DNA from: Escherichia coli O157:H7
Lineage (GTDB): Bacteria > Pseudomonadota > Gammaproteobacteria > Enterobacterales > Enterobacteriaceae
Strand: one strand, 5' to 3'
Assembly (NCBI RefSeq): GCF_013167455.1
Contig: NZ_CP038328.1
DNA: 64,000 nucleotides
A program made the position numbers. Shown here piece after piece: positions 24,201 to 27,200 of this stretch (position 1 is the stretch's first letter; every line of letters starts with the position of its first letter).

Positions 24201-27200
24201 CCGCAGACATCGAGGATCTCACGAACACGCGCGTACCCCAGTAAGGTCGGGTTAAGTTTCACAAAGGTGTTGAGCCCTTTTTCTTCCAGCATGTAGCGGC
24301 AAATGGCTTCGATTTCATGCGGAGGACAGCCGTGCATGGTGGAGAGGGTGACGCCATGCACCATACTGGTGGGGATGCGAGCGGGTAAGGCTTGCAAGCT
24401 TTCGCGTTTTTCCTGCAATCCGTGGCGGGCTAAAAATGCGTCATCCTGGAGTAATTTATTCAGCGTATCGCGATATTGCGCGAATTTCGGATGGTCAGAT
24501 GCGTCCATCATATTGTCGATGAACTGTTGCATTGGCGGTTGCTTAATACCTTCGAGGTTGTAACCGACGCTCATATTAAAGATGAACGATTTACCGGAAT
24601 CAGAAGGTTGGAACATCGCTTCGAGAAGGTGCAGGGCAAACCAGGCTTTGAGGTATTCATCCCAGGCTTTAAGCAGGGTAAATTCGGTAGACCATTCGGT
24701 GTTAAAGCACTCGTCTTCGGCATCAATACAGGGCTTTTCCAGCTCCAGGCGGTCAAGAATTTGGACGGTTTTTAGTTCGATGAAACGTCCGCCAGTCAGC
24801 CAGGAAGTGACAATATTTTGCGCGAGCTGCGTGTGCGGGCCAGCGGCAGGGCCGACGGGAGTGGCACAGGTTTCACCGAAGACGCTAACAGTTTTACCTT
24901 TTACAGGTGAGTAAAACTGTTGCTCGGGAATACCAAAGATTGAGCGTTGTTGTTGGTATTCATCAAATATGCGCGTCAAAAGTTCCTCAAACGGAATGGG
25001 ACGCATAATATCCCCCATAACCCTCTCCTTAGCTTATACAGATATCATTGAGTGACCGGTGTTGAGAAATCCGGTGGTTTAGGGGGATAGAGCAACAATC
25101 GCACCACTCTTGCCAGGTTTGGCGGGAAATATAAAAAAATGTGAGGCGGCTCGAAACTTAAGGGCTTTTTGTGAATGAACTCACAGGTGCTAAATGAGAA
25201 TTAAAATCACTCCTGAAAATTATTATTGCCATCCCATATATCACTTTTTCTCTTTTCTCAAAATCAGTGATTCCTTATCATTATGATAAAGAGTGCTGGA
25301 GGGATTAAATATTTGAACGCAATCGTTTAACTACGTTTTTTAAATTTTAGTATACCTTTTTTGCGCTGTAATAAAGTCGTCCGGAGTATCAATATCTAAA
25401 ATTATTTCTGCATTTTCTACTTCGACGGAATAATGAGCTCCCATAAGGAGTGCCTGACGCATATTGGTGATATTGGGGCGCTTGATTGCCTGCATCAGGC
25501 ATGGTTTTGACACTAAAATCGGATGGCCGGGGATGCCATTATGGAGTGGCAGTATTGCGCCATCATTTCGTAACGACCAGATTTTTCTGAAAATATCGAT
25601 GGTGAGGGTTGGCATGTCACCGTGGGTGAGAAAACAATGTTCTGTTTGCACTGCGGGTACTGCGGCCTTTACTGATGTTAGTAAACCCTGCGCATAATCT
25701 GGGTTGTGGATAATAGTGATATTGCTCTGGTTCGCATAACGTTCGTGCAGTTCATTACCACGATAGCCGGTGACTAAAATAATTCGGCTACAAAACTGCA
25801 ACGCATTTTTGATACTTGTATCAAGAATTGTCCCCTGTTGCCAGGGTAACATCATTTTCCATTGCCCCATTCTTGATGATAATCCGGCAGCGGTAATTAT
25901 ACAGTCGATGGCTGACATAGTGGTTCCATTATTTATAGGGGCTAATAACGCCTGATAATTGCGTTACTTCCTGATGGATTAAGTTGGGGATAATTTATCC
26001 CAGAGAGGTCATAAAGACTCGTGAAAAGTATAGTTGACCCATCGGCATTATTCATTGATTTAGGTGCGCAGAAACGTCCCACTGTGATTTCTGTTGTTGG
26101 TGCTGGGGGGAAAACCAGCTTGCTTTTTTGGCTGGCAGAACTGCTCCAGGCTAGCGGCAGGCGTGTGTTAATCACGACGACAACACATATGTTTATGCCA
26201 ACGTCTCACTGGCCCGTGGTTTTCTGTCGTGATCCCGCCATGCTTCCTCATGCGTCTCTTACATCCCCCATTTCATTTTGTTTTCACAGCTGGAAAGCGA
26301 ACCTGGGAAAAGTGCAGGGATTTACGCCAGAAGCGATTGATGCACTGGTGCAACGACCAGAGTGTGACGTAATTCTCATTGAAGCAGATGGCTCGCGTGC
26401 AATGCCGTTAAAAGCGCCTGATGAGCACGAACCTTGCATACCCAAAAGCAGTTGCTGCGTGATTGCTGTGATGGGAGGACATATTTTGGGCGCGAAAGTG
26501 AGCACGGAAAATGTCCATCGCTGGTCGCAGTTTGCTGATATTACCGGGTTAACACCTGATGCAACCTTGCAACTGAGCGATCTCGTTGCGCTGGTTCGCC
26601 ACCCTCAGGGGGCGTTTAAAAACGTACCGCAAGGTTGTCGGCGAGTCTGGTTCATTAACCGTTTTTCTCAATGTGAGAATGCGATTGCGCAAAGCGAGCT
26701 CCTTCAACCGCTGCAACAACACGACGTAGAGGCAATCTGGCTGGGCGATATACAAGAACATCCTGCAATCGCGCGCAGATTTGTGAATTAGCGGCCCGGG
26801 TATTCCGGGTTACTGAAAGGATATCCATTGAGGTTGGTATGAATATTTTCACAGAGGCTGCAAAACTCGAAGAGCAAAATTGTCCGTTTGCTATGGCGCA
26901 AATTATTGATAGCCGAGGCTCGACTCCCCGCCATTCTGCACAAATGTTAGTGCGCGCCGATGGCTCTATCGTCGGTACAATTGGTGGCGGAATGGTTGAG
27001 CGGAAGGTGATTGAAGAGTCGCTTCAGGCATTGCAGGAACGTAAGCCGCGATTATTCCATGGACGTATGGCTCGTAACGGTGCGGATGCTGTCGGGTCAG
27101 ATTGTGGAGGTGCGATGTCAGTGTTTATCAGCGTCCATGGTATGCGTCCACGTCTGGTGTTGATTGGCGCGGGGCATGTCAACCGGGCGATAGCCCAGAG

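What the first reader, a model, noticed from the sequence alone, without database searches (positions are those of the whole stretch)
25091..25106. Candidate sigma54 promoter upstream of the ygfK-ssnA-ygfM-xdhD operon
The gene strand reads TGGTGC-GATTG-TTGCT (GG/GC correctly spaced, -12 element good, -24 weaker), about 75 nt upstream of ygfK in a 320-bp intergenic region.
Basis: partly seen in the sequence, partly recalled or inferred. Interest (0 to 1): 0.4.

Follow-up and report, generated by a model that had tools for sequence, protein, structure and literature searches.

The report
Known sigma-54 promoter of ygfK operon
The motif is a genuine sigma-54 (RpoN) promoter in front of the E. coli urate-degradation genes ygfK-ssnA-ygfM-xdhD, but it was already predicted in EcoCyc and shown by ChIP-seq to bind sigma-54, so the finding is correct and not new.

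Summary
On the gene (-) strand, 25106-25091 reads TGGTGC-GATTG-TTGCT. It lies 72 nt before the ygfK ATG in the 320-bp mocA-ygfK spacer.

A matrix built from 134 other ChIP-bound sigma-54 sites scores it 14.3 bits. That is the median of bound sites and the second-best hit in the window.

It is the same 17-mer as site OS31 of Bonocora et al. 2015 (ChIP-seq occupancy score FAT 26, 11th of 135; 'predicted' in EcoCyc). Zhao et al. 2010 found ygfK 2.4-fold down in delta-rpoN, but placed the motif 9 nt further upstream.

New here:
Zhao's placement is not.
- A palindrome, TTATCA-N3-TGATAA, lies 160-203 bp upstream in 72 of 78 loci. It also precedes the xdhA, ygeW and ygfT sigma-54 sites, and it matches the activator-binding site (UAS) predicted for the Clostridial regulator DioR. 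It is the likely binding site of YgeV.
- A perfect CRP core lies at about -97.5.

Verdict: a real promoter, already known. The start site, YgeV dependence and CRP role remain untested.

The parts
25091..25107 (-). Sigma-54 -24/-12 promoter element GTGGTGCGATTGTTGCT (GG at 25105-25104, GC at 25093-25092)
   Evidence: Read directly. PWM 14.3 bits. Same sequence as ChIP-seq site OS31. Conserved in 79/79 ygfK loci. The 43-nt core is >=99% identical in 4939 of 5082 E. coli genomes, whereas only 601 of 5171 reach that over the surrounding 551 bp.
25080..25080 (-). Predicted transcription start (inferred, not mapped); the 62-nt 5' UTR is 25080-25019
   Evidence: Convention of Bonocora et al.: start 19 bp downstream of the motif centre (25099). 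This reproduces their tabulated 62 bp to ygfK.
25273..25291 (.). Candidate upstream activator sequence (UAS): palindrome CTTTATCATAATGATAAGG (core TATCA-N3-TGATA at 25276-25288), centred about -202 from the predicted start
   Evidence: Present 160-203 bp upstream of the motif in 72/78 loci against 0.8 expected. Similar palindromes precede the xdhA, ygeW and ygfT sigma-54 sites. 18/19 identical to a UAS predicted for Clostridial DioR.
25254..25266 (-). Conserved block TGATTTTGAGAAA; binder unknown, possibly a second activator half-site (TGAGA)
   Evidence: 80-90% column conservation in 49 Enterobacterales sequences. TGAGAA-type sites are listed for C. difficile DioR.
25192..25212 (-). Conserved block GAGTGATTTTAATTCTCATTT; binder unknown
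   Evidence: A TGAT..TC[TG]CA pattern sits at a fixed ~100-104 bp upstream in 45/78 loci.
25170..25185 (.). Perfect CRP consensus core TGTGA-N6-TCACA, centred about -97.5
   Evidence: the only exact match in the window. Found at a fixed 78-79 bp upstream of the motif in 22/78 loci. Glucose repression of the pathway is reported in 10.1101/2025.05.19.654654.
25140..25161 (-). Conserved blocks TTAAGTTTCGA (25161-25151) and CCTCACA (25146-25140) between the CRP site and the promoter; function unknown
   Evidence: Alignment conservation of 70-90%.
25100..25116 (-). Alternative register CTGGCAAGAGTGGTGCG, the one chosen by Zhao et al. 2010; judged not to be the functional element
   Evidence: 8.8 bits against 14.3. 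Scores above 3 bits in only 4 of 79 loci, median -16. Zhao Table 2.
16893..25018 (-). Driven operon: ygfK (21920-25018), ssnA (20589-21917), ygfM (19760-20539), xdhD (16893-19763)
   Evidence: Annotation of the identical O157:H7 region and ORFs. Terminator-like hairpin at 16883-16868.
35112..36890 (+). ygeV (isrR), the candidate sigma-54 activator (enhancer-binding protein, EBP): PAS sensor, AAA+ domain with GAFTGA loop, Fis-type HTH; no receiver domain
   Evidence: Pfam and NCBIfam. GAFTGA read in the translation.
34727..34743 (-). Sister sigma-54 site of ygeW (CTGGCACACTTATTGTT); palindrome TCTCATATTGATA at 34944-34956
   Evidence: Bonocora site OS30.
40648..40664 (-). Sister sigma-54 site of xdhA (CTGGCGTAAATCTTGCC); palindromes TATCACATTGATT (40783-40795) and, about 10 bp downstream of it on the gene strand, ACTCATATTGATA
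   Evidence: Bonocora site OS29.
10085..10101 (+). Sister sigma-54 site of ygfT (TATGCCCGTTTATTGCA); palindrome TCTCATATTGATA at 9907-9919
   Evidence: Bonocora site OS32.

Best explanation
25091-25107 (-) is the sigma-54 (RpoN) promoter of the ygfK-ssnA-ygfM-xdhD operon. This operon encodes the reductive steps of anaerobic urate degradation.

Proposed mechanism, with each step marked:
1. RNA polymerase carrying sigma-54 sits on the GG/GC element as a closed, inactive complex. Shown by published ChIP-seq.
2. It is opened by an AAA+ activator (enhancer-binding protein, EBP), most probably YgeV, which is encoded 10 kb away in the same cluster. Inferred.
3. YgeV binds the palindrome TTATCA-N3-TGATAA about 200 bp upstream of the start and reaches the polymerase by DNA looping. 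Inferred.
4. A perfect CRP site between the palindrome and the promoter probably supplies the bend and links expression to glucose availability. Inferred.
5. Transcription should start near 25080, giving a 62-nt leader. Inferred.
For: Motif:
- Exact GG-N10-GC spacing. PWM 14.3 bits, the median of 134 bound sites. 0.002 expected by chance in this spacer and strand.

Binding in vivo:
- The identical 17-mer is ChIP-seq site OS31, FAT 26. Ten of the other 134 sites score higher.

rpoN dependence:
- 2.4-fold down in delta-rpoN and 2.1-fold up after sigma-54 induction.

Conservation:
- The best sense-strand hit within 400 bp upstream of ygfK is 11.7-19.8 bits (median 15.1) in 79/79 species. The antisense median is 3.7 and the intragenic control 4.5.
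- T-G-G and T-T-G-C are invariant over 30 distinct 17-mers while positions 5-12 vary.
- The promoter stays with ygfK whether the upstream gene is mocA, yqeB, yqeC, xdhC or hyuA.
- Within E. coli the 43-nt core is far more uniform than its surroundings.

Activator:
- YgeV has a sigma-54 interaction domain with GAFTGA and an HTH_8 domain.
- The palindrome is present in 72/78 loci against 0.8 expected, at spacings of ~160, 181, 193 and 203 bp, which suggests helical phasing.
- It also precedes the other three sigma-54 sites of the cluster.
- It matches the UAS predicted for Clostridial DioR upstream of ygeW-ygfK-ssnA-ygeY.
- A Firmicutes activator with a YgeV-like sensor domain sits next to the same palindromes and a sigma-54 motif.

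Physiology:
- ygfK is strongly induced by urate in MG1655.
- ygfK, ssnA, ygfM and xdhD belong to the YgeV iModulon, a co-expressed gene set from the PRECISE-1K RNA-seq compendium.
- ygfT expression drops in a ygeV mutant, as cited.
Against: - No transcription start has been mapped.
- ChIP-seq shows occupancy by inactive holoenzyme, not transcription.
- The rpoN effects are only about 2-fold. They come from a microarray list that Bonocora et al. judged mostly false positive, and that study assigned the other register.
- The in vitro genomic SELEX screen (gSELEX) for RpoN holoenzyme lists the ygeV/ygeW spacer in its tables. It has no occurrence of ygfK or mocA in the main text.
- A hit of this score is expected 1-2 times per 128 kb by chance.
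- YgeV binding to the palindrome, YgeV dependence of ygfK and CRP binding are all untested.
- No IHF consensus was found between the UAS and the promoter.
Confidence: 0.85

Rival explanations
1. Sigma-54 holoenzyme binds here but never fires. The site would be a poised or decoy site, and ygfK would be transcribed from elsewhere.
For: Bonocora et al. stress that their sites are binding sites, not proven promoters, and that the polymerase is inactive at most of them. No start site is mapped.
Against: Orientation and distance to ygfK are conserved in 79/79 species across changing upstream genes. A conserved, phased UAS is present. rpoN dependence is reported. Urate induces ygfK.
Confidence: 0.05
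2. A CRP-dependent sigma-70 promoter in the same spacer is the main driver: TTTCGA-17-TATATT ending at 25128, with the CRP site about 57 bp upstream of its start. Sigma-54 would be secondary.
For: A perfect CRP core lies at 25170-25185. A weak 8/12 hexamer pair is present. Glucose represses the pathway. Zhao et al. state that 14% of sigma-54 genes can also be transcribed with sigma-70.
Against: The standard scan finds no sigma-70 promoter on the gene strand inside the spacer; its only gene-strand hit (25372-25344) lies within the end of mocA. The TATATT hexamer is not conserved outside Escherichia, whereas the sigma-54 element is. The CRP site is absent in 56 of 78 loci that keep the sigma-54 element.
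Confidence: 0.07
3. The functional sigma-54 element is the register 9 nt upstream, TGGCAA-GAGTG-GTGC (25115-25101), as assigned by Zhao et al. 2010.
For: It has a better -24 half (TGGCAA). It was published as the ygfK promoter.
Against: It scores 8.8 bits against 14.3. It is present only in Escherichia and one Citrobacter, with a median of -16 bits elsewhere. MEME on the ChIP-seq peaks chose the downstream register.
Confidence: 0.03
4. ygfK is mainly expressed by read-through from mocA, and the motif is incidental.
For: mocA is co-oriented. No intrinsic terminator is predicted in the spacer.
Against: In 28 of 79 loci the upstream neighbour is not a co-oriented mocA: it is divergent (yqeB, yqeC) in 20, another gene or unidentified in 8. 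The sigma-54 element is still present in all of them. The spacer carries about 200 bp of conserved regulatory blocks.
Confidence: 0.05

Closest known systems
E. coli K-12 ygfK sigma-54 site: OS31 of Bonocora et al. 2015 (PMC4591121), listed as a predicted promoter in EcoCyc
   Same: Identical 17-mer, same gene, same 62-nt distance from the predicted start to the ATG. It is the same element, seen here in an O157:H7-type genome.
   Different: Nothing differs in the promoter itself.
Sister sigma-54 promoters of the same cluster: xdhA (OS29, experimentally confirmed in EcoCyc), ygeW (OS30), ygfT (OS32)
   Same: A GG/GC element 36-84 nt (predicted start to start codon, Bonocora Table 1) before the first gene. 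A T[A/C]TCA-N3-TGATA palindrome with its 5' end 131-213 bp upstream of the motif start. Membership of the YgeV iModulon.
   Different: ygfK has the TGGTGC variant of the -24 box, yet the highest ChIP occupancy of the four (FAT 26 against 11, 3 and 3). It alone has a perfect CRP core, although ygeW has a one-mismatch CRP-like site at 34786-34801.
DioR regulon of Clostridia (Nie et al. 2019, PMC6615313): a sigma-54 activator predicted to control dpaL, ygeW-ygfK-ssnA-ygeY and yqeC-ygfJ-yqeB-xdhC
   Same: Same gene set and sigma-54 dependence. The predicted UAS ATTTATCATAATGATAAGG is 18/19 identical to the E. coli ygfK palindrome. A Firmicutes activator with a YgeV-like sensor domain has the same layout.
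   Different: A different phylum and a different gene order. Orthology of YgeV with the named DioR proteins was not tested directly. The DioR sites are themselves only predictions.
prpBCDE promoter of E. coli and Salmonella: sigma-54 and PrpR dependent, and also CRP dependent (recalled from memory, not checked here)
   Same: A catabolic sigma-54 promoter combined with catabolite control through CRP.
   Different: CRP action at ygfK is only inferred from a sequence match and from reported glucose repression.

Membership tests
Sigma-54 (RpoN) dependent promoter | -24 GG and -12 GC dinucleotides exactly 10 bp apart, within a TGGCAC-N5-TTGCW-like context | tested here: met
   TGGTGC-GATTG-TTGCT. 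14.3 bits on a matrix from 134 bound sites, at the median of those sites.
Sigma-54 (RpoN) dependent promoter | Correct orientation and a short distance to a downstream gene, maintained in evolution | tested here: met
   Sense strand, 57-129 nt before ygfK in 79/79 loci. The core bases are invariant and the linker varies.
Sigma-54 (RpoN) dependent promoter | Occupancy by sigma-54 holoenzyme in vivo | not testable with these tools
   Literature: ChIP-seq site OS31, FAT 26, in K-12 with the identical sequence.
Sigma-54 (RpoN) dependent promoter | Transcription depends on rpoN | not testable with these tools
   Literature: microarray, 2.4-fold down in delta-rpoN and 2.1-fold up on induction. The effect is modest and has not been independently confirmed.
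Sigma-54 (RpoN) dependent promoter | Transcription start about 12 nt downstream of the GC | not testable with these tools
   No start-site data were found. Predicted at 25080.
Sigma-54 (RpoN) dependent promoter | A cognate AAA+ activator with a GAFTGA loop is encoded in the genome | tested here: met
   YgeV: PF00158 with E 2e-70, GAFTGA present, HTH_8 domain.
YgeV / DioR-type regulon (sigma-54 promoters activated from a TTATCA-N3-TGATAA UAS) | Palindromic UAS 100-250 bp upstream of the sigma-54 element | tested here: met
   25276-25288. Present in 72/78 orthologous loci against 0.8 expected. Also present at the xdhA, ygeW and ygfT promoters. Matches the predicted DioR sites.
YgeV / DioR-type regulon (sigma-54 promoters activated from a TTATCA-N3-TGATAA UAS) | Physical binding of YgeV to the palindrome, and ygeV-dependent expression of ygfK | not testable with these tools
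   Indirect only: membership of the YgeV iModulon and lower ygfT expression in a ygeV mutant (cited).
CRP-dependent sigma-70 promoter (class I or II) | CRP site centred at -41.5, -61.5 or a similar position relative to a recognisable -35/-10 pair | tested here: not met
   The CRP core is perfect. The best hexamer pair is only 8/12, puts CRP near -57, and is not conserved.

The most novel reading that the evidence does not exclude
The TTATCA-N3-TGATAA palindrome is the operator of E. coli YgeV (IsrR). I found no published binding site for this regulator in the searchable library.

It would mark a single regulatory module made of three parts: a YgeV/DioR-type activator, this UAS, and a sigma-54 promoter. 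That module travels with the anaerobic urate-degradation genes from Clostridia to Enterobacteria, Aeromonas and Vibrio. In enterics it is overlaid with a CRP site that explains the glucose repression.

If so, the full YgeV regulon could be read from sequence.
Probability: 0.6. Interest if true: 0.4.

Novelty: already known. Interest (0 to 1): 0.2.

Why it matters
The operon encodes XdhD-YgfM and YgfK-SsnA. These are the first reductive steps of the gut-bacterial urate-degradation pathway, which is now being engineered into probiotic E. coli for gout.

Its native control appears to be a sigma-54 promoter, a probable YgeV site about 200 bp upstream, and a CRP site. This would explain why the pathway is silent in ordinary cultures and repressed by glucose. 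It also tells engineers which elements to keep or replace.

The promoter itself adds nothing new. The worthwhile leads are the resolved register and the conserved upstream activator site.

Tried and rejected
- Alternative register TGGCAA-GAGTG-GTGC (Zhao 2010). Rejected on score and lack of conservation. My first offset of 11 nt was wrong and was corrected to 9.
- Sigma-70 promoter or terminator in the spacer. The simple scan found neither on the gene strand inside the spacer. A relaxed scan found only an 8/12 pair.
- IHF consensus WATCAANNNNTTR between the UAS and the promoter. No match with one mismatch or fewer.
- Riboswitch or known RNA in the leader. No Rfam hit at E<=1.
- Leader hairpin ACCGG-N11-CCGGT. 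The fold is no better than shuffles (z = 0.75). Only the outermost pair covaries.
- An independent link between the palindrome and other sigma-54 hits in the fetched loci. The 8 positives are mostly the same palindrome shared by a divergent promoter, so they are not independent.
- Reitzer and Schneider 2001 (PMC99035) is not held.
- Literature searches for a published YgeV binding site found none. One search was swamped by C-reactive-protein papers.
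Full report
**1. What is in the sequence**

The window is an E. coli O157:H7-type chromosome segment. 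The 551 bp around the finding are 100% identical to several O157 genomes and are present in 5171 of 5426 complete E. coli genomes. The window runs in the reverse of the K-12 orientation.

- ygfK is the 1032-aa ORF at 21920..25018 (-).
- mocA/ygfJ is at 25340..25918 (-).
- The spacer between them is 320 bp.
- On the gene strand, 25106-25091 reads TGGTGC GATTG TTGCT, with GG-N10-GC spacing. It ends 72 nt before the ATG.

**2. Is it more than chance?**

I took the 135 sigma-54 ChIP-seq motifs in Tables 1 and 2 of Bonocora et al. 2015. I removed the ygfK site and built a position weight matrix (PWM) from the other 134.

- The ygfK 17-mer scores 14.3 bits. That is the 52nd percentile of bound sites and the second-best hit on both strands of the window.
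- The top three hits are the xdhA, ygfK and ygeW sites.
- Across 128 kb, 0.8 (iid model) to 2.0 (Markov-1 model) such hits are expected by chance, so the score alone proves little.
- Only 0.002 are expected in this spacer on this strand.
- The off-consensus TG in TGGTGC costs under 1 bit. The same hexamer occurs in 6 other bound sites.

**3. It is already known**

The identical 17-mer GTGGTGCGATTGTTGCT is site OS31 of Bonocora et al. The peak lies upstream of b2878 (ygfK). Its occupancy score (FAT, fold above threshold) is 26, and only ten of the 135 sites are higher. The predicted start is 62 nt before the ATG, and the site is marked 'P', predicted in EcoCyc.

The same paper names ygfK among only five of the 22 microarray candidates of Zhao et al. 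2010 that its ChIP-seq confirmed.

Zhao et al. report ygfK 2.1-fold up five minutes after sigma-54 induction and 2.4-fold down in delta-rpoN.

Two caveats apply:
- Bonocora et al. stress that polymerase at these sites is transcriptionally inactive under their conditions.
- The in vitro genomic SELEX screen (gSELEX) for RpoN holoenzyme lists the ygeV/ygeW spacer. It has no occurrence of ygfK or mocA in its main text.

**4. Which register?**

That register scores 8.8 bits against 14.3.

I fetched 80 ygfK loci from one genome per species. They cover Escherichia, Citrobacter, Klebsiella, Edwardsiella, Morganella, Serratia, Aeromonas, Vibrio, Photobacterium, Ferrimonas and Rhodoferax/Comamonadaceae.

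- In all 79 loci with enough upstream sequence, the best sense-strand hit within 400 bp of the start is 11.7-19.8 bits (median 15.1) and lies 57-129 nt before the ATG.
- The antisense median is 3.7 bits and the intragenic control median is 4.5.
- Over 30 distinct 17-mers, T-G-G and T-T-G-C are invariant while positions 5-12 vary. This is the pattern expected of a selected sigma-54 element.
- The Zhao register exceeds 3 bits only in Escherichia and one Citrobacter, with a median of -16 elsewhere.

The promoter follows ygfK whatever lies upstream: mocA co-oriented in 50 loci, yqeB divergent in 15, yqeC divergent in 5, xdhC in 2, hyuA in 1, and other or unidentified in 6. This argues against read-through as the main source of expression.

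Within E. coli, the 43-nt core is >=99% identical in 4939 of 5082 genomes. Only 601 of 5171 reach that level over the surrounding 551 bp.

**5. How it probably works**

A sigma-54 promoter needs an AAA+ activator (enhancer-binding protein, EBP). ygeV (35112-36890, +) encodes a PAS sensor, a sigma-54 interaction domain with the GAFTGA loop, and a Fis-type HTH. It has no receiver domain.

About 200 bp of the spacer is conserved in blocks. The most striking block is the palindrome TTATCAtaaTGATAA at 25275-25289.

- A T[A/C]TCA-N3-TGATA palindrome lies 160-203 bp upstream of the sigma-54 motif in 72 of 78 loci, against 0.8 expected.
- The half-sites are invariant and the central 3 bp are free.
- The spacings cluster at about 160, 181, 193 and 203 bp, which suggests helical phasing.
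- In the window, 4 of the 8 matches to this pattern lie upstream of the four intergenic sigma-54 sites of the cluster: ygfK, ygeW, xdhA and ygfT. Their 5' ends lie 131-213 bp upstream of the motif start.
- The comparative-genomics study of Clostridial sigma-54 regulons predicts nearly the same upstream activator sequence (UAS) for the activator 'DioR' in front of ygeW-ygfK-ssnA-ygeY. Its site ATTTATCATAATGATAAGG is 18/19 identical to the E. coli sequence.
- The N-terminal sensor of YgeV finds a Firmicutes activator (31% identity, E 2e-17). That gene is followed by YgeY-like and DpaL-like genes, and the spacer between them carries TATCAGAATGATA, TCTCAAAGTGATA and the sigma-54 motif TGGCAAGGTAATTGCA.

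I therefore infer that the palindrome is the YgeV binding site. No binding experiment supports this yet.

**6. CRP**

Between the palindrome and the promoter lies TGTGAgttcatTCACA (25170-25185). It is the only perfect CRP core in the window and is centred about -97.5.

- It sits at a fixed 78-79 bp from the motif in 22 of 78 loci, mainly enterics.
- A 2025 preprint reports glucose repression of the pathway and a Crp site in the ygeV-ygeW spacer.
- No IHF consensus is present, so CRP may supply the bend. This is inference.
- A sigma-70 alternative, TTTCGA-17-TATATT, matches only 8/12 and is not conserved.

**7. Physiology and operon**

- ygfK is strongly induced by urate in MG1655.
- ygfK, ssnA, ygfM and xdhD are in the YgeV iModulon, a co-expressed gene set from the PRECISE-1K RNA-seq compendium.
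- XdhD-YgfM and YgfK-SsnA catalyse the first steps of reductive urate degradation.
- The four genes are separated by 2, 49 and -4 nt.
- A GC-rich hairpin followed by a T-rich tail lies just after xdhD.

**8. Verdict**

The feature is already known: predicted in EcoCyc, bound by sigma-54 in ChIP-seq, and reported as rpoN-dependent.

Still unproven: the start site, dependence on YgeV, and the role of CRP.

Noticed in passing
window 26422-26438 (+), inside yqeC: A sigma-54-like motif, TGAGCACGAACCTTGCA (10.1 bits), in sense inside yqeC. It is Bonocora's intragenic site IS34 (FAT 7). The ..GCA[CT]GAACCTTGCA core recurs at the matching place in many fetched loci (Edwardsiella, Aeromonas, Serratia, Buttiauxella, Photobacterium). 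It may be an internal promoter for yqeB, or it may simply be held by coding constraint.
   Followed up: partly
window 9905-9921 and 34942-34958: The 15-mer TTCTCATATTGATAT is identical upstream of ygfT and ygeW. The xdhA upstream region carries two adjacent copies of the palindrome type: TATCACATTGATT, and ACTCATATTGATA about 10 bp downstream of it on the gene strand. Multiple sites would suit assembly of an activator hexamer.
   Followed up: partly
window 25055-25075 (-), ygfK leader: A small hairpin, ACCGG-N11-CCGGT, near the 5' end of the predicted leader. The CCGG cores are invariant in enterics and the outer pair changes A-U / G-U / G-C. More distant genera have unrelated 5'-proximal hairpins at the same place. 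The fold is not better than shuffles (z = 0.75).
   Followed up: partly
window 52692-52721, both strands, inside the 343-aa ORF 52538..53569 (+): Two overlapping, convergent sigma-54-like hits: ATGGCGAAGATGTTGCA at 13.2 bits and CGGGCATTAATAATGCA at 13.7 bits. They rank 4th and 5th in the window, and neither sequence appears in the Bonocora tables that I read.
   Followed up: no
window 34786-34801: A CRP-like site, TGTGGGGTTGATCACA (one mismatch), about 50 bp upstream of the ygeW sigma-54 motif. It probably corresponds to the 'native Crp-binding site' that a 2025 preprint replaced when engineering the cluster.
   Followed up: no
L056, L057, L070 (Buttiauxella sp., Cedecea sulfonylureivorans, Rahnella) upstream of ygfK: These loci carry a second, divergent sigma-54 motif of 15.1-15.6 bits facing yqeB. 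L056 and L057 lack the TATCA-N3-TGATA palindrome; L070 keeps a TCTCA variant. Their activator or its site may have diverged.
   Followed up: no
L001 9347-11430 compared with window 26021-26791: In O157:H7 strain PV15-279, yqeC is split by an IS1203 insertion. In the window yqeC is an intact 256-aa ORF.
   Followed up: no
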